Under the pieces are notes generated by a model that saw only the letters and a list, made by a program, of their open reading frames with translations, was not told where the DNA came from and did not search any database. The translations under genes and the position numbers were made by a program. A stretch of 64,000 bases of DNA from a virus (taxonomy: Duplodnaviria > Heunggongvirae > Uroviricota > Caudoviricetes): IMG/VR virus record IMGVR_UViG_2910596823_000004. One strand, 5' to 3'. Within the stretch, counting starts at the first letter, position 1. Each line of letters opens with the position of its first letter. Positions 2,466 through 49,165 of this stretch are shown here, one piece after another.

Positions 2466-3107
2466 TTAGACGCTCCCATCACTTTCATCACCAGACGCGT
2501 CAGAATCGCCCTCAGCTTCGCTCAGTGCTTCCTCTTCGAGTGACTCAAGCAGATCGTCATCAATCAGATCCGGCTCATCATCTTCCTTACGCAGCTGCGC
2601 CACCTGGGAAGGCGTAAGTTCGCCAAATACCAGGTTCGGGATTTCGTCGTCCTCGTTCTCCACGCGATCCATACCGAGCGCTTTCGACGATATTTCGAAG
2701 CACTTAGCGAGTGTGCCGCTGGCACGCTGGAGACTCTTCAGGTCATCTTCGATGGCTGCCAGTGGCCTGCCGTCCTTCTTGGCTGTGGCCACCTCATGCA
2801 TCACCATACGACCGAGTGCGAACGCCCAATCGTCGTAACGAGTCCGGCGCTCTTCGATTTTCTCTGCACGCGCCTTCGCACGCAGCTCTGCGTCGGATTT
2901 GAGCGACTCGCGCACCATCTTCCCAACGGAGTCCGCGCCTTTCTCTAATCCACGCTTTTTGAAATGTCTGGAGAGCGTTTCACGACGAATGCCGTACTCT
3001 TCCTCCAGCTTGGAGAGTGTGTATTCGCCGGAAGTCCACTTCGCTTCGGCTTCTGCCCACTCAGCTGGTGTCAGGCGAGTTTTGCTCTCGTCTTTTTCTA
3101 CAGTCAT
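2466..3107 (-). CDS. Putative terminase small subunit / DNA-binding packaging protein
   Basis: 213 aa, immediately upstream of and coupled to TerL. It has an HTH-like N-terminus and a very acidic C-terminal tail. The assignment is by position only. Confidence 0.45.
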   Translation of the reverse strand: MTVEKDESKTRLTPAEWAEAEAKWTSGEYTLSKLEEEYGIRRETLSRHFKKRGLEKGADSVGKMVRESLKSDAELRAKARAEKIEERRTRYDDWAFALGRMVMHEVATAKKDGRPLAAIEDDLKSLQRASGTLAKCFEISSKALGMDRVENEDDEIPNLVFGELTPSQVAQLRKEDDEPDLIDDDLLESLEEEALSEAEGDSDASGDESDGSV

Positions 3108-3302
3108 AGATCCCTCTAAAACACTCAGAGCGCATCCTTGCGCTCCTAAACAACTTGTTTAATTCAGTGCCTAACCAATTTGTTTTCTGGGTGTTTAAAA
3201 CCGGGCTGGGAAGTATTCAGAACCTGCTTCCGTATATATTTAATAAGTCACTTAGTATTTATATATACGGAAGCAGGCTCTCAAACTGGCTCCCAGACCG
3301 AC

Positions 3303-3569
3303 TTACATCACCAGTAATTTGGCTCTGGCACGACCTAACGTGGTCAGTCCCAGCGTGCGACGGTGGTAGCCGGAATCACCGCGCTGGCGGCACATTCCTT
3401 TCTCCACCAGCCCCTTTTTCACCAGTGCGCGGATAGAGAACTGCATACTCTGTTTGGTCGTTTTGTACGGCAGCACTTCAAGCAGCTCGTCCAGATCGAG
3501 CAGATGCCCACGCTCATGGCCTAAATTGATGGTTTTGATGATGTCTTTTTGTTTGTCGGTCAACGTCAT
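3303..3569 (-). CDS. Hypothetical small protein (88 aa), possibly winged-helix
   Basis: ORF in the same operon direction. It is followed by an 80-bp hairpin element. Confidence 0.4.
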   Translation of the reverse strand: MTLTDKQKDIIKTINLGHERGHLLDLDELLEVLPYKTTKQSMQFSIRALVKKGLVEKGMCRQRGDSGYHRRTLGLTTLGRARAKLLVM

Positions 3570-3578
3570 GGCAAATCC

Positions 3579-4478
3579 TTATGCCGGTAATGCAATTTCA
3601 AGAGGTTTATTCAAAGGCTGTTTGTCGAATGCCAGCAGTGGCAGCGTGTCCGGCAGCTGACGACCAAAGTCCGGGTTTCGGTACACGCCATACAGCGGAG
3701 ACGTGAAGCTCAGGTTGTGAATGTCCTTGAGCAGCTTCACGATGCTGGCCTCGTCCACCAGGCTGTCGGCAATGTCCTGAATCGTCGTGCCACGATTACG
3801 CCCGGCTTTGGCCAGGGAACTGTTCTTGTGGTAGTCAGCGACCAGATCACGCAGCGCACGACGACGGCGAGACTCACTCATGGCGAACAGCTCTTTGACG
3901 ATCGCTTCGTTGTCGCCAGGGTCAGAACGGAAATGACGCTGGAAGACGCGCAACGCACTCTCATAGCTCTTCGGACGCTCCGGACGGATGAACTGGAACC
4001 CTGCTTTCATGGCGAACGGGTTGTATTTGCTCATCGACGACTGGATCTCGATGATTGGCCGGTCGTGCATCCTGCTAACCAGGTTAATCATTCGATAGGA
4101 GACGCCGACACCGCGGTACTGAGTGTCAACAACGGAACGGCTGATCACGGCAAAGTTGTTGTTCACGTACCGGCCCCAATACTGGTTGGCCACGGTGGTA
4201 TTGGTGGTTGGCTTCAGCTTAGGAAACATGCGATGGCGAGGCGCCAGCAGCAGTTTCGGGTAAGCCATAACCACGACGCCCACCAGCCGGTCGTCCAGTT
4301 CGCAGCGATAATACGTTGGCGCGAACGGCTTACCATCCGTCTTGTAGTGCAGCGACTTCAGCGCGTGCCAGTCTTCAACCGTGCCTTTGGTAACGGTCAT
4401 ACGCTCCAGAAAGTCCAGATGACGCGGGAACTCTTCCGGGCGGTAGCGTTTGATGATGATGCCTGTCATGTCGATCAC
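3579..4478 (-). CDS. Hypothetical protein (299 aa). The central segment VVDTQYRGVGVSYRMINLV looks like GNAT motif A.
   Basis: Long ORF, tightly packed with its neighbours. Confidence 0.45.
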   Translation of the reverse strand: MIDMTGIIIKRYRPEEFPRHLDFLERMTVTKGTVEDWHALKSLHYKTDGKPFAPTYYRCELDDRLVGVVVMAYPKLLLAPRHRMFPKLKPTTNTTVANQYWGRYVNNNFAVISRSVVDTQYRGVGVSYRMINLVSRMHDRPIIEIQSSMSKYNPFAMKAGFQFIRPERPKSYESALRVFQRHFRSDPGDNEAIVKELFAMSESRRRRALRDLVADYHKNSSLAKAGRNRGTTIQDIADSLVDEASIVKLLKDIHNLSFTSPLYGVYRNPDFGRQLPDTLPLLAFDKQPLNKPLEIALPA

Positions 4479-10626: not shown

Positions 10627-10654
10627 ATAGCGCCCACTATGGGCGCTATTTTTA
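10627..10654 (+). terminator. Rho-independent terminator (copy 1)
   Basis: atagcgcccactatgggcgctat followed by TTTTT. Confidence 0.6.
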
Positions 10655-10872: not shown

Positions 10873-10900
10873 AATAGCGCCCACTATGGGCGCTTTTTTC
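10873..10900 (+). terminator. Rho-independent terminator (copy 2; same stem as 10627)
   Basis: aatagcgcccactatgggcgct followed by TTTTTT. Confidence 0.6.
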
Positions 10901-11997: not shown

Positions 11998-12202
11998 GGT
12001 GATAATCCTTTAAACAACTTGTTTTCTTGTTTGTTTAATTATCGCTACGCGCATAAGGCGTCCAAGCGTTCTGTTTCGGCAACTGGTGGCCGGCAGGGAT
12101 TCGGAGGGTTGTTCGGTAGCCTGGCGGTAAGAGGTGGGTGTTTTTAGCCTGCGGGAAACAGGATGGTCATTTAAGGCCACCAGCATGGGTGGCCTCGTTT
12201 TC

Positions 12203-14429: not shown

Positions 14430-15700
14430 CGATTTCACCACCAAAACCCGTAACCCTTTACACTAGATCTGGCTTCCCGACATGAGCGTGCGAAGCTGAT
14501 CTGGTCTCAACGCTCAACTGCGGGATTCACCAATTCCCGCACTCTTCAGGTGAATGAGGAAAAGGCATACTCCCGCAGCCGCCCCTCGCTCTGAACCGGG
14601 ATGTACCCGTTTCCCGACCGGCAGCCAGCCTTTTCTCGGTTCGTATAGCGGGATTCCCACCGTTTCCCTGAAAACCTCCAGCCTTTTCCCTACGGCGATG
14701 CCCCGTTCCTGAAAAGGGACATGGCCTTTTCCCTGGATGGCCCGAAGGTTGACCGAAGGGGTGGATAGGGACGTTACGGGGGATGAAAACTATGGCTTGA
14801 ATTTCTACGAAGAAAGTAGCGATACCCCTCTTCCCCTTCCCACTTATACCTCCAGTTAAATCTCTACGGATTTTCTCTCCTGTGGACGTGCAAACCTTCC
14901 CCCTGATAACACTCTATACGGCGAGTATTCCTTTGGGTGAAATGGGTGGTTTGTTCTCTCTACCGGCGTATGTGGTTTCGTTCTTTTTGAGGTGGTTCTT
15001 CTCTGTGTTTTCGTCTGGGGTGTTCTCGTCGTTTTGGGGAGTGTTCTTCTCCCTGTATGGAGTAATGGCAGGTGCGCTTTTCTCTTCGTTTACGTGAAAT
15101 TGTGGAAGTGTGGGTAATGGCAGTAGGGCGCTTTAGTTGTTCTCCGCATATGAAGTAATGGCGTTCCCTGCTATTCAGGGATTTGCGCTCTCTTTCGGGG
15201 TAATGGTGGGTAAAGGAGATTGCGACGGTTCCTGTTCTGGTCTGGGTTTGTCCGGGGTTTCGTTCTGGCTGTTCTTCTCCGTGTATTGGGTAATGGCATA
15301 TAGGGGTTTGCGTGCACGAGCTGCATTCACGGTTGCCTGGGGAGATTAGGTGGGTGCTCTGTAGCCTGGGGCAAAGAGGTGGGTCTTTTCGGTAGCCTGA
15401 CAGGAAGAGGTGGGTGTTTCCGGGATTGTGGGTAATGGCGTCTCTGGGTTTCCTGTGGGTGTGGTTAACTTGTTTTCTTGTGCCTGAAAACAACTTGTTT
15501 AGATGTCCAACATAACGCAACGGGAGCGCTTCTGAGCGTGTCTGCTTTTGGGTGGTATCACGAGTCGTTTTTGACGTTTTGGTCGCAGGGAGATGGATTC
15601 TGGTGCGCAGGAATTTGGGTATAAGAGATGGCGTGCGAAAACATCAATTTTTTAGACCAAATCAGGGGAAAGCGTTGACTTTTCGTTGACGTGTTATTTA
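14430..15700. repeat. Large non-coding repeat region, G+T-rich on the plus strand
   Basis: Six copies of GTAATGGC, roughly 44-50 bp apart or multiples of that. Further repeats of TAGCCTG..AAGAGGTGGGT and CCTTTTCCC/CCGTTTCCC. The only ORFs are compositional artefacts. Confidence 0.55.
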
Positions 15701-26997: not shown

Positions 26998-27656
26998 CAG
27001 CTAAATTATACAATCAACGCATGTTCACGTTTTACATATACCATCGATAATGTCCGCTCTTGGCACATTGAAGACATTACGATGCGCGATTTTTTCCCTC
27101 GCGCGTGTGCGCACGCGTGCGTGTAAATATTAAAAATTTTTATTAGAAAAGAAAAACTTACTTCCCAGAACAGGTTTTAATAAAACCTGAACTGAACGAA
27201 CGAAGTGAGTGAAGTTCACCTCGAACGAAGTGAGAGGTTGTCTTTTCAGGTAATACTCTCCCAGGGAGGTGAGTACAAAATCTCCTCACCAACCTGGTCG
27301 TTACATAACCTGAAAAGTTATGACCTAAGTCTACTGCCAGCTTAGGCTTGGGAAGTTATGGATGACAGCACCCCAGAACCGAGATCTTCCCACACTTTAT
27401 GAAGGGGAGTACTGGATTCAACCTCTCGAAATACTCCAGACTCGACAATCATAAAGTGACCCTTCTCTCCGCTCACTTTGGTTCCCCCTTCCCCAACCCC
27501 TAAGCGGTGCCGGTTCTACGCTGGTAGTGAGCTTTTTTAAACCTGACGCCAGTGACGCTATCCCCCACCCATCAGGTCGAGCTGCCGGAATCAATCCGGA
27601 AAGCGAGTGGATTTTATCACTGGCGATCTGCGTTTTAAATGGTAAGTACTTACCGA

Positions 27657-27887
27657 TTATTTCGATTGATTATTTTCTCGACCATGAAGCTGGACGTTCA
27701 GGGCAAACACCTCATTGATGAGTTCCCCTAACAGCTGCTCCACCAGCTCTTTGTGCTCGCCTGAATGAAGACATTTGAGCGACCATTCGTAGAGACTGAA
27801 AGCCTTATCGCGATCTTTCATCATGTCGCGCACTTTGGCCAGAAAATCGCTCTCAACGAGCGCTACGACGTTCGTCGGGTATACCAT
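27657..27887 (-). CDS. Hypothetical protein (76 aa)
   Basis: ATG after an AAGGAAAAC RBS. Confidence 0.45.
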   Translation of the reverse strand: MVYPTNVVALVESDFLAKVRDMMKDRDKAFSLYEWSLKCLHSGEHKELVEQLLGELINEVFALNVQLHGRENNQSK

Positions 27888-28089
27888 GATAGTTTTCCTT
27901 ACTGTGGTTCATAAAATCGATTCTAGAGCGTCTGAAGAGGGGTTCCAGTGGGTTCTGGAGGTGTAAAACGGTCTGGGAGTTGTTTGGAAATCACGTCTTA
28001 AAAAGCCTGCGTCTGTATATATTAATAATTAGTACTTAGTTATTTATATATACGGAAGCAGGTTCTCAAACTAACTCCCAGACTGGTGT

Positions 28090-28707
28090 TTACGCTGCCT
28101 TTTTACGTGGTCTCTTCTTCCTGACAACATTGGCAGGATCATAACCACCCAGCTTTTTCATCACCGCCAGCGGTATCTTGCTGATGGTGTGCCCAGCTTC
28201 CTGACAGTAGCCACGGAAGATAAGCAACATGCTGCCACCAGGGTTGATGTTCACCTCCACCAGCCCAAGTTCAACATCCGGCTCAACGAACGCAACACGG
28301 CCGCCAGACAAGATGACGGTTTCGTTGGCGCATTCAGCCGCACGCTCGTACCACTGCGTATCGAGGGATTGTGGTATCAACATGACCGTCGTCACTCCAC
28401 GCGCCTGCTCGCGGATGGCTGCGTCTATCCAGGGGGTGATTTTGGAGTAGGGCGGGTTAAGGAACGCCACAGTGCCAGGTTCTCCCCAGCTGCACTTGAG
28501 CGCATCACGCTCAACACCGATAAAGTTCGGCAGGAGAGCATTATCTTTGTTGCAGGCGACGTCCACATCGAACTTTACGCCTATGTAACGTTGGATGGCG
28601 ACAAACAACCACTGCGGTGTGCGCCAAAGGTCGCGAAGAGAGGCATCACGCTCTCGCTTTTTGATTTTTTCGGCTGCGATCATTACTTTGCTTTGATAGG
28701 TAAACAC
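28090..28707 (-). CDS. dam: Phage Dam-type N6-adenine DNA methyltransferase
   Basis: LNPPYS motif and RDLWRTPQW as in the phage Dam MTase family. The real start is probably the ATG at 28683 (MIAAEK). Confidence 0.65.
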   Translation of the reverse strand: MFTYQSKVMIAAEKIKKRERDASLRDLWRTPQWLFVAIQRYIGVKFDVDVACNKDNALLPNFIGVERDALKCSWGEPGTVAFLNPPYSKITPWIDAAIREQARGVTTVMLIPQSLDTQWYERAAECANETVILSGGRVAFVEPDVELGLVEVNINPGGSMLLIFRGYCQEAGHTISKIPLAVMKKLGGYDPANVVRKKRPRKKAA

Positions 28708-28867
28708 TTACCTATTTTTTCATTTAATCCAACGAATAGCAAACAAAGAAGAACGCGCCAGATCCGCAAACGGGAAGCTCTCTGGCGCGTTTTATCGATG
28801 CTGGGTATGCGATTAGCTTACCCAGCGTCCTAAAGCTCTCAGGGGCTTTAGATCGGGTAGGGGAACA

Positions 28868-29710
28868 TCATCCAATGGAATACTCCGCTATGAATTTTTT
28901 GACGATCGGCGACTCTTTATTAAGGGTTAGATTTCCACCTTCCCTGGTGGCAATGCCAGTAGCTGGAAACACAGCCATCATCTGGCCAGCCTGAGTCGAA
29001 GCGGTGTTGAGCGGATATGGTTTCTCCGGGTTGCTCATTAGCGCCAGTTTAATGCTATTGCTGGTCGCCGTGTTCGCGTCAAGGATATGGCGCATTGCGA
29101 TTACCGTGTAGACGCTGATTTCCGGCCCACCACTAAACCAGTTCAAAAGGTTTAAGATCTTGTCTTTCGCTTTGACTGGCGCCCCTTCGAATGCGGCAGT
29201 AAAGCTCTCACTTTCCAGACCGGCTGTCGCATAGAACGATTCGTCCTTACCTTCCAGCGTGAAGCGAGGTTTGGCCGTGGTACGCTCTGATTTTGCCTTC
29301 TGGCGTTTTGGCTGCTCTTCTTCAGGTTTAGGCTCTGACGCCACTGAAGGTAAAGGGGTTGGATCTGTACCGGTAGTCTCAGTACTTCGAGCGTCAAGTT
29401 CAGGCGCTGGCTCGTTCACTATCTCCGCAACAAGGTCACGCTCTGGTTCCTCGACCTTCACCGATTCGTGCTCAATCTCAAGCTCTTCCAGAATGCTACT
29501 CAGATCGCCGGTAGAGCTGGCATTCATGACTTCATCCGCCACCGCCTCGACTGGTTTTGCGATTGCATCATCCAGACCAGAGAGAAGATCGTCGATCTCG
29601 TCGACACCGCTCGTTTTCGCAGCTTTCTGCACTGGTTCGTCGAGAGATTGCAACATTGCAGTCAGTTCGTCCAGGTCATCGTTTTTAACAGTGTTTGTAA
29701 CTGCGCTCAT
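28868..29710 (-). CDS. Hypothetical protein with an acidic, low-complexity N-terminal half (280 aa)
   Basis: ORF. Confidence 0.45.
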   Translation of the reverse strand: MSAVTNTVKNDDLDELTAMLQSLDEPVQKAAKTSGVDEIDDLLSGLDDAIAKPVEAVADEVMNASSTGDLSSILEELEIEHESVKVEEPERDLVAEIVNEPAPELDARSTETTGTDPTPLPSVASEPKPEEEQPKRQKAKSERTTAKPRFTLEGKDESFYATAGLESESFTAAFEGAPVKAKDKILNLLNWFSGGPEISVYTVIAMRHILDANTATSNSIKLALMSNPEKPYPLNTASTQAGQMMAVFPATGIATREGGNLTLNKESPIVKKFIAEYSIG

Positions 29711-32363: not shown

Positions 32364-34193
<1,830 letters not shown>

Positions 34194-47000: not shown

Positions 47001-47525
47001 TATGGGGAGGAAAGTAACCTCTGTAGAGAGCATAATAACCGCTATGAAGAGCAAAACAACCTCTCTGGAGAGTGGTCGGTATCCACTGTAGTGAGTAGGA
47101 GACATTGTCTTAACTGGATAACTCAGTGCCTGTTTTTCTACGTCAGGTGGCTGATATTCATAGAGATGTTGGAAGTTTTGCGTTCAGGCGTGTTTGTTTC
47201 GACCACACATTATCCCCAGAAGGGGAGTGATGGCTGGTTTTGCAATTACCTGATTTTTATACACAGGCCCGATCCAGTAATTCAGATCCCAAAGAGAACC
47301 AAAGAGGCCCACAAAGACCCAAAAAGATCCCCGCACCCCGCAAACCGTTGTGCCACATGGCCTTAGAGGTGATCGATATCCACTATAGAGAGAAGATCAG
47401 CCACTATGAAGAGTAAACCAACCACTGTAGAGAGTAGAAAAACCACTATAGGCGGTAGGATAACCGCTGCGATGAGTGCTACTATCCACTGTAATCAGTA
47501 AAGGCCACCAAAGCGGTCGAATAAA
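46990..47525. repeat. Iteron array upstream of repA (about 10 copies in two clusters)
   Basis: Repeats of ~19 bp, consensus (T/C)ATCCACTGTAGTGAGTA, with variants CCACTATGGGGAGG, CCACTGTAGAGAGTAG, CCACTATAGGCGGTAGG. Confidence 0.65.
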
Positions 47526-47539
47526 AAGAGACACTTGGA

Positions 47540-48604
47540 ATGAGCGAAAACGGCAATAAAAACATAGCGATCGTTGAAGCATTCTCAGAAACAGACAAAA
47601 AGACCGGTGAAGTTGTTACGTTAGTTCCTAACACCAACAACACAGTTCAGCCTGTTGCTCTGATGCGTCTTGGTCTCTTCGTTCCGACGCTGAAATCGAC
47701 CGCCAGGGGCAGAAAGGGGCAAATGGTCTCTATGGACGCCTCTGCTGAACTCAAACAGCTGTCTCTGGCCAAAGCCGAAGGGTACGAGGACATAAGGATC
47801 TCCGGCGTTCGTCTGGATATGGATAACGACTTCAAAACGTGGGTAGGCATCATCCATGCGTTCGCCAAGCACAAGGTTGTTGGCGATACTGTCACGTTAC
47901 CGTTCGTCGAGTTCGTCAGGCTCTGTGGCATACCAACGGCCAGATCGTCCGCGAAGTTACGCAAGCGCCTGGACAGTTCTCTAACTCGTATTGCCACAAA
48001 CACTATCTCATTCCGCAGTAAAGGCTCTGATGAGTATTACGTGACGCACCTTGTGCAGACAGCAAAGTACAGCACAAAGAACGACACGGTCTCGCTGCAG
48101 GCTGATCCTAAGATTTTCGAACTCTACCAGTTCGACAAAAAGGTTCTTCTGCAACTCCGGGCAATTAACGAACTCTCCAGAAAAGAATCCGCGCAGGCGC
48201 TCTACACCTTCATCGAAAGTTTGCCACCTGACCCGGCACCAATCTCGTTGGCTCGCTTACGCGCCAGACTTAACTTAACCAGCCGCACCATTACCCAGAA
48301 CGCGACAGTCAGGAAGGCGATGGAGCAACTTCGGGAGATCGGCTATCTCGATTACACCGAAGTGAAGCGCGGCAGCTCGGTCTACTTCATCATCCACTAT
48401 AGGCGGCCGAAGTTACGCCCGGCATTGCCACCAGCTAAAGCTGCGCCGGAAGAACCAGAAGAGCAGGAAGATAGCTTGCCTGGTGATGATCAGGAGGACA
48501 TCATCGATGTTGTTCCTGAAGAAAAAGACGGTGAGATGGTCATGTTGAGCAAGGAAGAACTGGCGATTCTCGAAGAGCTACGCAAGGCAAAAGCTCGCAA
48601 ATAG
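47540..48604 (+). CDS. repA: Plasmid replication initiator RepA (iteron-binding, P1/F-RepE type)
   Basis: 354 aa bracketed by iteron arrays on both sides. Resembles Rep_3-type initiators by eye. Acidic C-terminus. Confidence 0.65.
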
Positions 48605-49165
48605 CTCAACCACTGTAGAGAGTAGAAAGGCTCACTATCCACTGTAGTGAGCCTTTTGTTTATCTGAAATCCGCTATCCACTGTAGTGAGTAACAACAAC
48701 CTAAGAGTAACCACTGTAGGCAGTGGCGCTCAAATAACGAAATAAATGTTAGTGGTTACAAACCCAGATGAAACAAGGGCTGCGAGGTTAGTGGTCACTG
48801 GGTATCTTGTTAAATCCACTCTCTATAGTGGTTATCGTTGTTCCCGTCGTTATTGGCTATCCACTATGGAGAGCAGAATCGGTTGGCCGGATTTGCTAAC
48901 CACTGTAGTGAGTAGATATCCGCTGAAAACAGTGACGGTTTACTCTCCATAGTGGATACCCGCTGGAGAACGCATTCCATCACTCTCTATAGTGGTTGTT
49001 GGCTGCTGATGAACGCCTGTTTACTCCCTACAGTGGATAGCGACGTCGATAATCGCCACTTTACTCACTACAGTGGATACCGGATGTCACGGCAGGCGTT
49101 TTACTCAATACAGTGGTTATTGGTCGGATACGCACGCGGTGAGCTGGCTACTCACCGCAGTGGTT
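48605..49165. repeat. Iteron array downstream of repA (about 13 copies, both orientations; incA-like)
   Basis: CCACTGTAGAGAGTAG, ATCCACTGTAGTGAG (twice), CCACTGTAGGCAGTGG, reverse-orientation TCTCCATAGTGGATACC / CTCTATAGTGGTTG / TACAGTGGATA, and others. Confidence 0.65.

What the first reader, a model, noticed from the sequence alone, without database searches (positions are those of the whole stretch)
3209..3300. ~80-bp element with a 17-bp-stem hairpin, present twice (second copy 28005-28085)
Copy 1 is ...AACCTGCTTCCGTATATATTTAATAAGTCACTTAGTATTTATATATACGGAAGCAGGCTCTCAAACTGGCTCCCAGACCG. It has a perfect 17-bp inverted repeat, CCTGCTTCCGTATATAT / ATATATACGGAAGCAGG, around a 21-nt loop. The loop contains a TAAGT.ACTTAG half-palindrome related to the class-A element. 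Copy 2 is ~85% identical with a degenerate left arm. Both lie immediately 3' of a minus-strand gene. One is just upstream of TerS, where a pac/cos-proximal signal would be expected. The other is just after the Dam MTase gene. Candidates are a packaging or recombination signal, an RNA processing or stability element, or a remnant of a small mobile repeat.
Basis: seen in the sequence. Interest (0 to 1): 0.5.

Follow-up and report, generated by a model that had tools for sequence, protein, structure and literature searches.

The report
Conserved long-hairpin punctuation element in phage-plasmid
The hairpin is real and is one of three position-fixed copies of a roughly 110-bp nested palindrome that closes each large gene block of SSU5/pHCM2/pMT1-type phage-plasmids, most likely as a transcript-end hairpin (terminator or processing site) rather than a packaging signal or mobile-repeat remnant.

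Summary
Copy 1 has perfect 17-bp arms (3223-3239 / 3261-3277) around a 21-nt loop. Copy 2 (28006-28062) has 2 mismatches.

The window is an SSU5/pHCM2/pMT1-type phage-plasmid. The unit is larger than reported: a nested quasi-palindrome of about 110-125 bp with outer arms GGTCTGGGAG / CTCCCAGACC. SSU5 holds a third copy outside the window.

All three copies point the same way and start 4-7 nt after a stop codon. They are occupied at the same sites in about 90% of relatives' loci.

- **Pairing is maintained.** Diverged lineages show compensatory changes, and non-Watson-Crick positions are mostly G·U on the coding strand (45 versus 11 cells).
- **T-runs are one-sided.** A T-run follows the inner stem at sites 2 and 3 (33/39 and 34/39 variants). 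A mirrored A-run is rare (0/39 and 5/39).
- **A canonical terminator replaces it.** One distant lineage keeps only the right arm at site 2, followed by an ordinary terminator.

Best reading (about 0.45): a coding-strand RNA hairpin that ends the gene blocks. Copy 2 looks like an intrinsic terminator nested in a longer, RNase III-type duplex, as in lambda tI/sib. Copy 1 lacks the T-run and looks like a barrier or processing hairpin ahead of the terminase operon.

DNA-level roles (origin, pac/cos, operator) are not excluded. The SSU5 GenBank record ends inside copy 1's loop.

The parts
3197..3305 (-). Copy 1 (site 1): the whole nested quasi-palindrome, from the stop codon of the 88-aa gene to the right outer arm.
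   Evidence: The coding-strand RNA fold is -52.5 kcal/mol with z -8.7. The element is conserved upstream of the TerS-like gene in 74 of 76 related loci.
3223..3239 (.). Copy 1 inner arm, CCTGCTTCCGTATATAT on the + strand.
   Evidence: It is perfectly complementary to 3261-3277.
3240..3260 (.). Copy 1 AT-rich centre or loop, 21 nt, containing TAAGTCACTTA.
   Evidence: Sequence. The SSU5 GenBank record starts and ends at window 3240/3241.
3261..3277 (.). Copy 1 inner arm, ATATATACGGAAGCAGG on the + strand.
3290..3298 (.). Copy 1 outer arm, CTCCCAGAC on the + strand (GTCTGGGAG on the coding strand). It starts 4 nt after the stop codon.
   Evidence: It pairs with the degenerate partner at 3203-3213 in the fold. 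Compensatory changes occur in outer-stem pairs in relatives.
3203..3213 (.). Copy 1 degenerate outer arm, GGGCTGGGAAG on the + strand.
27967..28090 (-). Copy 2 (site 2): the whole nested quasi-palindrome directly after the Dam stop codon.
   Evidence: Folds are -42.8 kcal/mol on the coding strand and -56.1 on the + strand, z -7.1 and -10.3. The element is present downstream of Dam in 69 of 80 related loci.
28006..28022 (.). Copy 2 inner arm, CCTGCGTCTGTATATAT on the + strand. It differs from copy 1 at 2 positions.
   Evidence: The same GTCT/AGAC variant occurs on both arms, fully complementary, in relative L087.
28046..28062 (.). Copy 2 inner arm, ATATATACGGAAGCAGG on the + strand.
28000..28004 (-). 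U-run (UUUUU on the coding strand) one base after the inner stem of copy 2. It lies in a 14-15-nt stretch that has no counterpart on the left side of the palindrome (read by eye).
   Evidence: Sequence. A run of at least 4 T follows the arm in 33 of 39 site-2 variants, and a mirrored A-run in 0 of 39.
27971..27979 (.). Copy 2 outer arm, GTCTGGGAG on the + strand.
28075..28083 (.). Copy 2 outer arm, CTCCCAGAC on the + strand. On the coding strand it starts 7 nt after the Dam stop codon.
3303..3569 (-). 88-aa gene (SSU5_130 homologue, PHROG 900, function unknown) whose stop codon abuts copy 1.
   Evidence: A gene of 83-104 aa followed by a palindrome and then TerS is also seen in distant relatives.
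2466..3107 (-). 213-aa gene just upstream of TerL. It is a putative small terminase by position (PHROG 867, 'DNA binding domain').
28090..28707 (-). Dam-type N6-adenine methyltransferase gene, immediately upstream of copy 2.
   Evidence: PF05869, E 5e-37.
27657..27887 (-). 76-aa gene (PHROG 5343), the first gene after copy 2.
3117..3146 (-). Small GC hairpin plus U-run in the leader of the TerS-like gene. This is context, not part of the element.
   Evidence: Equivalent hairpin plus T-run structures precede TerS in L292, L293 and L294.
3149..3200 (-). Two copies of the genome-wide promoter/leader-like motif (ACACC)CAGAAAACAAnTTGKTTA, lying between copy 1 and the TerS-like gene.
   Evidence: Repeat families D1, D3 and D6.

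Best explanation
The element is a conserved nested palindrome that acts on the coding-strand RNA as the end mark of a large block of co-directional genes. There are three paralogous copies per SSU5-type genome, and two lie in this window.

Each copy begins 4-7 nt after the stop codon of the last gene of a block, so it is transcribed as that block's 3' end (inferred). It can fold into a 17-20-bp inner stem with a GC-rich base and an AU-rich top. An 8-9-bp outer stem can add to this (shown in silico).

At copy 2, and at the third copy outside the window, a U-run directly follows the inner stem. There the element most likely works as a Rho-independent terminator (inferred). If RNA polymerase reads through, the right outer arm is also transcribed. 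The hairpin then lengthens to an interrupted duplex of roughly 30-40 bp (about 27 consensus pairs), which is the kind of substrate RNase III cuts. This is the logic of lambda tI/sib (inferred by analogy).

Copy 1, the one in the finding's coordinates, has no U-run in the Salmonella, E. coli and Klebsiella lineages. There the same hairpin more likely serves as a 3'-end barrier or processing site. It would separate the upstream genes from the terminase/late operon, which has its own promoter-like motif and leader terminator just downstream (inferred).

The near-identity of the three copies is explained by recombination and gene conversion between them. These plasmids encode a recombinase and an exonuclease (as annotated in the SSU5 record).
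For: 1. **Position and orientation.** All three copies have the same orientation and start 4-7 nt after a stop codon. In distant relatives, the unrelated palindromes in L292 and L293 overlap the upstream gene's stop codon, L297's begins right at it, and L295's begins about 25 nt after it.

2. **One-sided T-runs.** A run of at least 4 T within 12 nt after the right inner arm occurs in 33/39 site-2 and 34/39 site-3 variants. A mirrored A-run before the left arm occurs in 0/39 and 5/39. At site 1, other lineages do carry T-runs: CTTTTT, TCTCTTTTTT, TCTGTTTTTTTT.

3. **Replacement by ordinary terminators.**
- In the L148-L158 lineage the left arm at site 2 is gone. The right arm remains and a canonical GC hairpin plus T5 follows it.
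- In L576 the right arm itself forms CAGAGC-ACG-GCTCTG followed by a run of 9 T.

4. **Pairing is maintained while the sequence changes.**
- Xenorhabdus site 2 has GCCTTGCTCCCATA / TATGGGAGCAAGGC, with two double changes and a paired insertion relative to Salmonella.
- L136 has TTTCG / CGAAA and L087 has GTCT / AGAC.
- Outer-stem pairs change from GC to AU and from UA to AU in L023-L026.
- Relatives with 59-65% TerL identity carry palindromes of unrelated sequence at the same place.

5. **Strand bias of non-Watson-Crick positions.** In the 10 core pairs, 45 cells are G.U on the coding strand, 11 are of the antisense type and 12 are other. Site 3 shows only coding-strand wobble types, apart from one A·A mismatch. 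In my reading of the sequences, mismatches in the distant palindromes are 5 of 6 coding-strand G.U.

6. **Stability.** Fold z-scores are -7 to -10.
Against: - Copy 1 has no U-run in the enterobacterial lineages (0/36 variants). The palindromes of the most distant relatives have none either. Termination therefore cannot be the universal function.
- The loop is 21-23 nt, longer than in typical intrinsic terminators, and the terminator scan did not flag either copy.
- The AT-rich centre and the right arm are conserved more than a simple hairpin needs.
- The right-arm sequence co-varies between sites 1 and 2 within a genome: TACGGAAGCAGGC, TATGGGAGCAAGGC or TATAGGAGCCAGGC. That could reflect a sequence-specific DNA-binding factor rather than gene conversion.
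- In some lineages the left arm decays while the right arm persists.
- Covariation within the close relatives is weak. Paired cells are 89.8% against 88.9% in shuffles (14/500 shuffles reach the observed value), and the RNAalifold covariation term is only -0.04.
- No transcript data were available. A Y. pestis small-RNA survey lists two pMT1 RNAs, and neither lies at the element.
Confidence: 0.45

Rival explanations
1. The elements are DNA-level origins of lytic replication. Each has an AT-rich unwinding centre flanked by inverted binding motifs for a phage initiator, can extrude as a cruciform, and is spread around the genome as in herpesvirus oriS/oriL.
For: - Every lineage has an AT-rich centre flanked by GC-rich inverted repeats, including distant ones with 45-100-bp AT-rich centres.
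- The three copies lie about 25, 33 and 45 kb apart on the circle.
- The third copy lies just upstream of the helicase-primase genes.
- Arm sequences co-vary between sites within a genome, as expected for one trans-acting binding protein.
- CTTCC and CTCCAGA-like motifs repeat downstream of sites 2 and 3.
- The plasmid encodes its own helicase, primase, polymerase and SSB (as annotated in the SSU5 record), and its lytic origin is unassigned.
Against: - A symmetric DNA site does not predict T-runs on the coding-strand side only.
- It does not predict the coding-strand G.U bias.
- It does not predict replacement by an ordinary terminator.
- GC skew is dominated by transcription direction and shows no inflection at the sites.
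- No initiator protein has been identified.
Confidence: 0.15
2. Copy 1 is the packaging recognition or cleavage site (pac or cos) of the phage, and the other copies are non-functional or auxiliary duplicates.
For: - A palindrome lies between a conserved 83-104-aa gene and TerS-TerL in most lineages examined, down to about 60% TerL identity (no clear one in L294).
- The SSU5 GenBank record is linear. It starts and ends inside copy 1's loop, with no missing or duplicated base relative to circular relatives.
Against: - There are three near-identical copies per genome, and two are far from the terminase genes. Cutting at all three would give pieces of 25-45 kb.
- Contig ends at the element are also seen in ordinary bacterial or metagenome assemblies (L289, L140, L141). 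The element therefore breaks assemblies.
- The Cyrano record shares the SSU5 start, probably through re-orientation rather than independent mapping (PMC9928086 gives no termini).
- TerL is of the Terminase_6N type. Its relatives include both T5-like phages and phages I recall as headful packagers, so the packaging type cannot be inferred.
Confidence: 0.1
3. The element is a protein-binding regulatory or partition site on DNA. It would be a large operator or centromere-like palindrome bound by a phage-plasmid repressor, activator or ParB-like protein, in the way N15 has dispersed centromere palindromes.
For: - The arm sequences are conserved and evolve in concert across sites.
- The right half persists alone in some lineages.
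- Two ParB-like genes lie about 2 kb upstream of copy 1, and a ParA-like gene lies about 2.3 kb upstream of the third copy.
- The loop has a loose resemblance to the 11-copy AGGTAAGTACTTACCT palindrome.
Against: - The spacing between the inner palindrome and the downstream promoter-like motif varies by 14 nt or more between sites and lineages.
- The strand-asymmetric features remain unexplained.
- The distant palindromes share no sequence, so any binding protein would have had to change completely.
Confidence: 0.1
4. The element is a selfish or neutral palindromic repeat (MITE- or REP-like), or simply a conserved linker that serves as a crossover point for module exchange, with no function of its own.
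For: - Recombination junctions fall in or at the element in two of three relatives examined closely. L156 switches from about 85% to 100% identity inside the hairpin, and L090 drops at its left edge.
- Mismatched arm combinations, including this window's copy 2, look like crossovers between two internally complementary alleles.
Against: - The same three sites are occupied across deep divergence, with no empty sites.
- There are only three copies. I noticed no target-site duplication, though I did not search for one.
- Matches in other plasmids are fragments of SSU5-type plasmids.
- Breakpoints relative to the window are not concentrated at the element: 16 of 242 fall there.
- Compensatory changes and one-sided T-runs indicate selection.
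Confidence: 0.07

Closest known systems
Lambda tI terminator nested in the sib RNase III site (retroregulation of int). Described from established knowledge, not tested here.
   Same: - A terminator hairpin lies directly after a gene.
- Sequence beyond the U-run is complementary to sequence before the hairpin, so read-through transcripts can form a longer duplex.
- Copy 2 has this layout: outer arm, inner hairpin, U-run, outer arm.
   Different: - No RNase III cleavage, antitermination or effect on the upstream gene has been shown.
- The loop is much longer and AT-rich.
- There are three paralogous copies per genome.
- Copy 1 lacks the U-run.
Phage T7 intercistronic RNase III processing sites (R0.3 to R18.5). 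Described from established knowledge.
   Same: - Several related hairpins per genome lie between co-directional genes.
- Each is long enough to be double-stranded RNA substrate.
- They are thought to leave a protective 3' hairpin on the upstream message.
   Different: - As I recall, T7 sites are about 60 nt with a defined internal loop. These elements are 110-125 nt and nested, with a perfect 17-bp core.
- No cleavage data exist for them.
- No Rfam family matched, only sub-threshold matches to generic long-hairpin models.
Canonical Rho-independent terminators
   Same: - The stem has a GC-rich base.
- A U-run starts 1-2 nt after the stem at copy 2 and the third copy.
- The element sits at the end of a gene block.
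- A canonical terminator occupies the equivalent place in a distant lineage.
   Different: - The stem is 17-20 bp and the loop 21-23 nt, against the usual 5-14 bp and 3-8 nt.
- The pattern scan did not detect either copy.
- Copy 1 has no U-run.
Herpes simplex virus oriS/oriL palindromic origins. Described from established knowledge.
   Same: - There are three palindromes per genome.
- Each has an AT-rich centre flanked by inverted conserved motifs.
- The total length is about 100 bp or more, and the location is intergenic.
   Different: - No initiator protein is known and no replication data exist.
- The strand-asymmetric T-runs and G.U bias point to RNA.
REP/BIME extragenic palindromes of enterobacteria. 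Described from established knowledge.
   Same: - They are palindromes just downstream of stop codons.
- They can stabilise upstream mRNA.
   Different: - As I recall, REPs are about 35 bp and number in the hundreds per genome, with variable site occupancy.
- Here there are three fixed copies of about 110 bp, with no sequence similarity to REP that I could see.

Membership tests
Rho-independent (intrinsic) terminator | GC-rich stem-loop at the 3' end of a transcription unit. | tested here: met
   The inner stem is 17-20 bp with a GC-rich base, 22-24 nt after the stop codon, at both copies. That it is transcribed is inferred from gene orientation.
Rho-independent (intrinsic) terminator | Run of U directly after the stem, on the transcribed strand. 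| tested here: inconclusive
   Copy 2 has C-UUUUU (window 28000-28004), and 33/39 site-2 and 34/39 site-3 variants have at least 4 T. Copy 1 has none, and neither do any of 36 site-1 variants of the close lineages. Other lineages do have T-runs at site 1.
Rho-independent (intrinsic) terminator | Short loop (about 3-8 nt). | tested here: not met
   The loops are 21 and 23 nt and only partly self-paired. The consensus scan did not report either copy.
Rho-independent (intrinsic) terminator | Demonstrated termination of transcription. | not testable with these tools
   No transcript-end data were found.
RNase III processing site (T7 R-site / lambda sib type) | About two helical turns or more of (interrupted) double-stranded RNA in an intercistronic position. 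| tested here: met
   The predicted coding-strand folds pair 3197-3305 and 27967-28090 into an inner stem plus an outer stem. The consensus structure has 27 pairs in 15 relatives.
RNase III processing site (T7 R-site / lambda sib type) | Cleavage by RNase III. | not testable with these tools
   This needs in vitro cleavage assays or comparison with an rnc mutant.
cos/pac packaging site | Adjacent to the terminase genes and unique in the genome. | tested here: not met
   Copy 1 is 115 nt upstream of the TerS-like gene, but equivalent copies lie after Dam and before the helicase region.
cos/pac packaging site | Coincides with the ends of packaged DNA. | tested here: inconclusive
   The SSU5 record ends fall in copy 1's loop. 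However, contigs of unrelated assemblies also break at the element, and no terminus mapping was found in the literature.
Mobile palindromic repeat (MITE / REP-like) | Variable site occupancy, many copies, target-site duplications. | tested here: not met
   Occupancy is 74/76, 69/80 and 69/80 loci at the three fixed sites. Misses at site 2 that I inspected are diverged forms or truncated contigs; misses at sites 1 and 3 were not inspected. There are three copies per genome. Hits in other plasmids are SSU5-type fragments.
Protelomerase target (telRL of N15-type linear plasmid prophages) | Palindrome that is perfect through its centre, together with a linear plasmid with hairpin ends. | tested here: not met
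   The centre is not palindromic base for base. The related plasmid records I inspected are circular.
Integron attC site | Imperfect palindrome after a gene, with outer core sites RYYYAAC / GTTRRRY. | tested here: not met
   The outer arms are GGTCTGGGAG / CTCCCAGACC, with no GTTRRRY core.
Any Rfam RNA family | Match above the gathering score. | tested here: not met
   Only sub-threshold matches to microRNA-precursor models, that is, generic long hairpins.

The most novel reading that the evidence does not exclude
The three nested palindromes are DNA-level sites used in the lytic cycle. They could be herpesvirus-like palindromic replication origins. Alternatively they could be cleavage or recombination sites whose centre is cut, which would explain the SSU5 record ends and the crossovers inside the loop. 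In either case the RNA-level terminator features at sites 2 and 3 would be secondary.
Probability: 0.2. Interest if true: 0.7.

Novelty: new variant of a known kind. Interest (0 to 1): 0.42.

Why it matters
SSU5/pHCM2/pMT1-type phage-plasmids are common in clinical Enterobacteriaceae, with 799 PLSDB records matching the copy-1 region, and they include the Y. pestis pMT1 backbone. As far as I know, and from the papers I could search, their transcription units, lytic origin and packaging site are all unassigned.

A conserved element that marks the three module boundaries gives concrete coordinates for mapping transcript ends, replication starts and virion ends.

It also has a practical consequence. 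The element breaks assemblies and is a crossover point between diverged modules, which matters for plasmid typing and reconstruction.

If it is only a terminator or processing hairpin, it is an ordinary kind of signal in an unusual, nested and concertedly evolving form.

Tried and rejected
- **Rfam search of both regions.** Only generic long-hairpin sub-threshold matches were returned.
- **Exact 14-16-mer scans of the viral collection.** They showed only that paired (palindromic) hits came from contigs that, where checked, are SSU5-type.
- **Breakpoint histogram around site 2 against the window.** It was dominated by inherited conservation steps and showed no hotspot at the element, 16 of 242 breakpoints.
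- **GC and AT skew of the whole SSU5 genome.** The profile is monotonic with transcription direction and says nothing about origins.
- **Literature search for SSU5 termini, packaging mode, transcriptome or palindromes.** Nothing relevant was found. The SSU5 genome announcement, the Gilcrease and Casjens D6 paper and a 2026 preprint were not held in the library.
- **Y. pestis small-RNA survey.** The two pMT1 sRNAs lie elsewhere.
- **Sigma-70 promoter inside the palindrome.** The scan found none in 2900-3700, and the best hand-fitted hexamers have wrong spacing or lack the final T.
- **Four-fold repeated binding motif.** An exact 7-mer analysis did not support the idea that the inner and outer arms are copies of one motif, beyond the main inverted repeats.
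- **Pfam and PHROG annotation of the genes next to each copy.** No function emerged that could link a protein to the element.

Full report
**What the window is.**
The regions around both copies match Salmonella phage SSU5 at 98-99% identity. They match E. coli and Klebsiella SSU5-like phage-plasmids at about 80%. A 151-bp query around copy 1 hits 799 PLSDB plasmids, including Yersinia pestis pMT1 and Salmonella pHCM2-size plasmids. Genes around both copies run on the minus strand, so "coding strand" below means the window's minus strand.

**Checking the observation.**
Copy 1 has perfectly complementary 17-bp arms at 3223-3239 and 3261-3277, around a 21-nt loop. Copy 2 has arms at 28006-28022 and 28046-28062, with two mismatches.

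The 16-nt arm with up to three mismatches occurs four times in the window against 0.26 expected. Folding energies are 7-10 standard deviations below shuffled controls on either strand.

Each copy starts just after a minus-strand stop codon. For copy 1 this is the 88-aa gene at 3303-3569, and for copy 2 it is the Dam methylase gene at 28090-28707 (PF05869, E 5e-37). Copy 1 lies 115 nt upstream of the 213-aa gene that precedes the large terminase gene.

**The unit is larger than reported, and there is a third copy.**
Outer inverted repeats GGTCTGGGAG / CTCCCAGACC flank the inner hairpin at both copies. The whole of 3197-3305 and of 27967-28090 folds as a nested hairpin.

A profile built from relatives finds a third copy in SSU5 at 33,434-33,538. 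It lies right after the stop codon of SSU5_037 and upstream of the helicase-primase genes, outside this window.

The three copies share one orientation. They divide the 103-kb genome into three blocks (as annotated in the record): structural and lysis genes, replication and nucleotide-metabolism genes, and a regulatory and miscellaneous block.

**Conservation.**
In IMG/VR contigs fetched through the neighbouring genes, the element was recognised at site 1 in 74 of 76 loci. It was recognised at site 2 in 69 of 80 and at site 3 in 69 of 80. Matches in an IncF plasmid and a Klebsiella co-integrate plasmid are fragments of SSU5-type plasmids. A 62-kb E. albertii plasmid carries the element in a context I could not assign. 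This rules out a recently mobile repeat.

**Is the pairing selected?**
Among close relatives the arms are so conserved that covariation is weak:
- 89.8% of cells are paired against 88.9% in shuffles, and 14 of 500 shuffles reach the observed value.
- The RNAalifold covariation term is -0.04, with four pairs showing compensatory change, including two in the outer stem.

Diverged lineages are more telling:
- Xenorhabdus site 2 has GCCTTGCTCCCATA / TATGGGAGCAAGGC. Relative to Salmonella, that is two double substitutions and a paired insertion.
- L136 has TTTCG / CGAAA and L087 has GTCT / AGAC, each fully complementary.
- Contigs with only 59-65% TerL identity (Piscirickettsiaceae, Chitinibacter, Roseospira, Faunimonas) carry long palindromes of unrelated sequence at the same place. 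Each has an AT-rich centre and sits between a small gene and TerS. The Faunimonas palindrome has arms of about 42 bp.

**RNA or DNA?**
Four observations point to the coding-strand RNA.
1. In the ten core pairs of 63 distinct variants, non-Watson-Crick cells are G.U on the coding strand 45 times. They are of the opposite-strand type 11 times and other 12 times. Site 3 shows only coding-strand wobble types, apart from one A·A mismatch.
2. A run of at least four T follows the right inner arm in 33/39 site-2 and 34/39 site-3 variants. A mirrored A-run before the left arm is seen in 0/39 and 5/39. At copy 2 the U-run lies in a 14-15-nt stretch between the inner arm and the outer arm that the left side lacks.
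3. In the L148-L158 lineage the left arm at site 2 is lost. The right arm persists and a canonical terminator follows. In L576 the right arm has itself become a 6-bp hairpin followed by a run of 9 T.
4. Each copy abuts a stop codon.

Other observations point to DNA or to sequence-specific recognition:
- The AT-rich centre is conserved.
- The right-arm sequence co-varies between sites 1 and 2 within genomes.
- The right half outlives the left half in some lineages.
- Copy 1, and the palindromes of the most distant relatives, lack a T-run.

Concerted evolution could equally come from gene conversion. These plasmids encode an annotated recombinase and exonuclease. Crossovers inside the element are also visible. 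L156 switches from about 85% to 100% identity to the window inside the hairpin. The mismatched arms of this window's copy 2 look like a cross between a TTCC/GGAA allele and a GTCT/AGAC allele.

**The packaging idea.**
The SSU5 GenBank record is linear. It ends ...CTTATTA and begins AATATATACGG..., which places the break inside copy 1's loop at window 3240/3241. No base is lost or duplicated relative to circular relatives.

This is the one lead in favour of a terminus. It is weakened by three points:
- Contigs from ordinary assemblies also break at the element: the Photobacterium contig L289, and IMG/VR contigs L140 and L141.
- The Cyrano record shares the SSU5 start, and its paper gives no termini.
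- Three copies per genome do not fit a unique packaging site.

TerL is of the Terminase_6N type. Its nearest solved relative is PDB 4ZNI, which I recall as Thermus phage P74-26 TerL. Its database relatives range from T5-like to Jersey-like phages, so the packaging mode cannot be inferred.

**Context downstream of copy 1.**
Two copies of a genome-wide motif follow (at least 9 copies just upstream of minus-strand start codons). Then comes a small GC hairpin with a U-run (window 3146-3117) and then the TerS-like start codon. Three of the distant relatives (L292-L294) have an equivalent leader hairpin plus T-run before TerS. This suggests the late operon is controlled by antitermination. It also fits a boundary between transcription units at copy 1.

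**Conclusion.**
The best-supported reading, at about 0.45, is a coding-strand RNA hairpin that closes the three gene blocks.
- At copy 2 and the third copy it has the features of an intrinsic terminator nested in a longer duplex, an arrangement like lambda tI/sib.
- At copy 1 it lacks the U-run and more likely acts as a barrier or processing hairpin ahead of the terminase operon.

DNA-level roles keep a combined probability of about 0.35. These are a lytic origin, pac/cos at copy 1, and an operator or centromere. A neutral or mobile repeat is unlikely.

Nothing describing this element was found in Rfam or in the searchable literature.

Noticed in passing
window 1193, 13048, 20837, 25111, 27640, 28698, 35505, 40240, 49900, 50228, 52278 (each 16 bp): There are eleven copies of the palindrome AGGTAAGTACTTACCT (up to 3 mismatches) against 0.11 expected. 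Of the copies I placed, 28698 overlaps the start of Dam and 27640 lies at the end of the 76-aa ORF. They look like dispersed operators for one repressor, as in P1.
   Followed up: partly
window 3172, 12011, 12503, 13458, 14048, 18671, 22551, 23274, 24246, 37800, 51129 (+ strand listing; the functional strand is minus): A shared motif appears in at least 9 copies. On the coding strand it reads (GATAAT)-ACACCAACAAGAAAACAAnTTGTTTA, followed in the copies I read by a ribosome-binding site and a start codon. It looks like a common promoter and 5' leader for many genes.
   Followed up: partly
window 3117-3146 (minus strand); L292, L293 and L294 upstream of TerS: A small GC hairpin plus U-run sits in the leader just before the TerS-like start codon. 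Equivalent hairpin plus T-run structures precede TerS in relatives with about 60% TerL identity. This suggests the late operon is controlled by antitermination.
   Followed up: partly
window 12112-12143 and 15328-15419; window 47482-49089: Two further repeat sets look like iterons. TTCGGTAGCCTGG..GAGGTGGGTGTTT has four copies, three of them in tandem at 29-31-bp spacing. CTATCCACTGTAGTGAGTAA-type repeats occur in direct and inverted orientation near the plasmid replication gene.
   Followed up: no
window 10627-10652 and 10874-10899: Two nearly identical small palindromes, ATAGCGCCCACTATGGGCGCTATTTT, lie 247 bp apart. They have the form of ordinary intrinsic terminators, so this genome also uses conventional terminators.
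   Followed up: no
L156, L090 and L145 against window 27100-29300: Relatives are mosaics of about 100% and about 80% identity blocks around Dam. In L156 the switch falls inside the hairpin and in L090 at its left edge. In L145 it falls inside Dam and at the start of the next gene.
   Followed up: partly
L289 (Photobacterium ganghwense contig end); L140 and L141 (IMG/VR contig ends): Assemblies break at or inside the element. L289 starts in the AT-rich centre, and L140 and L141 end at its left edge. The element is therefore an assembly breakpoint, which matters when reading the SSU5 record ends.
   Followed up: partly
L583 (Y. pestis 91001 pMT1, 98,104-98,193 and 105,828-105,915): The two pMT1 small RNAs reported by RNA-seq (sR082 and sR083, PMC3770706 Table S1) lie near the murine toxin gene and a DUF4145 gene, not at the hairpin elements.
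   Followed up: yes
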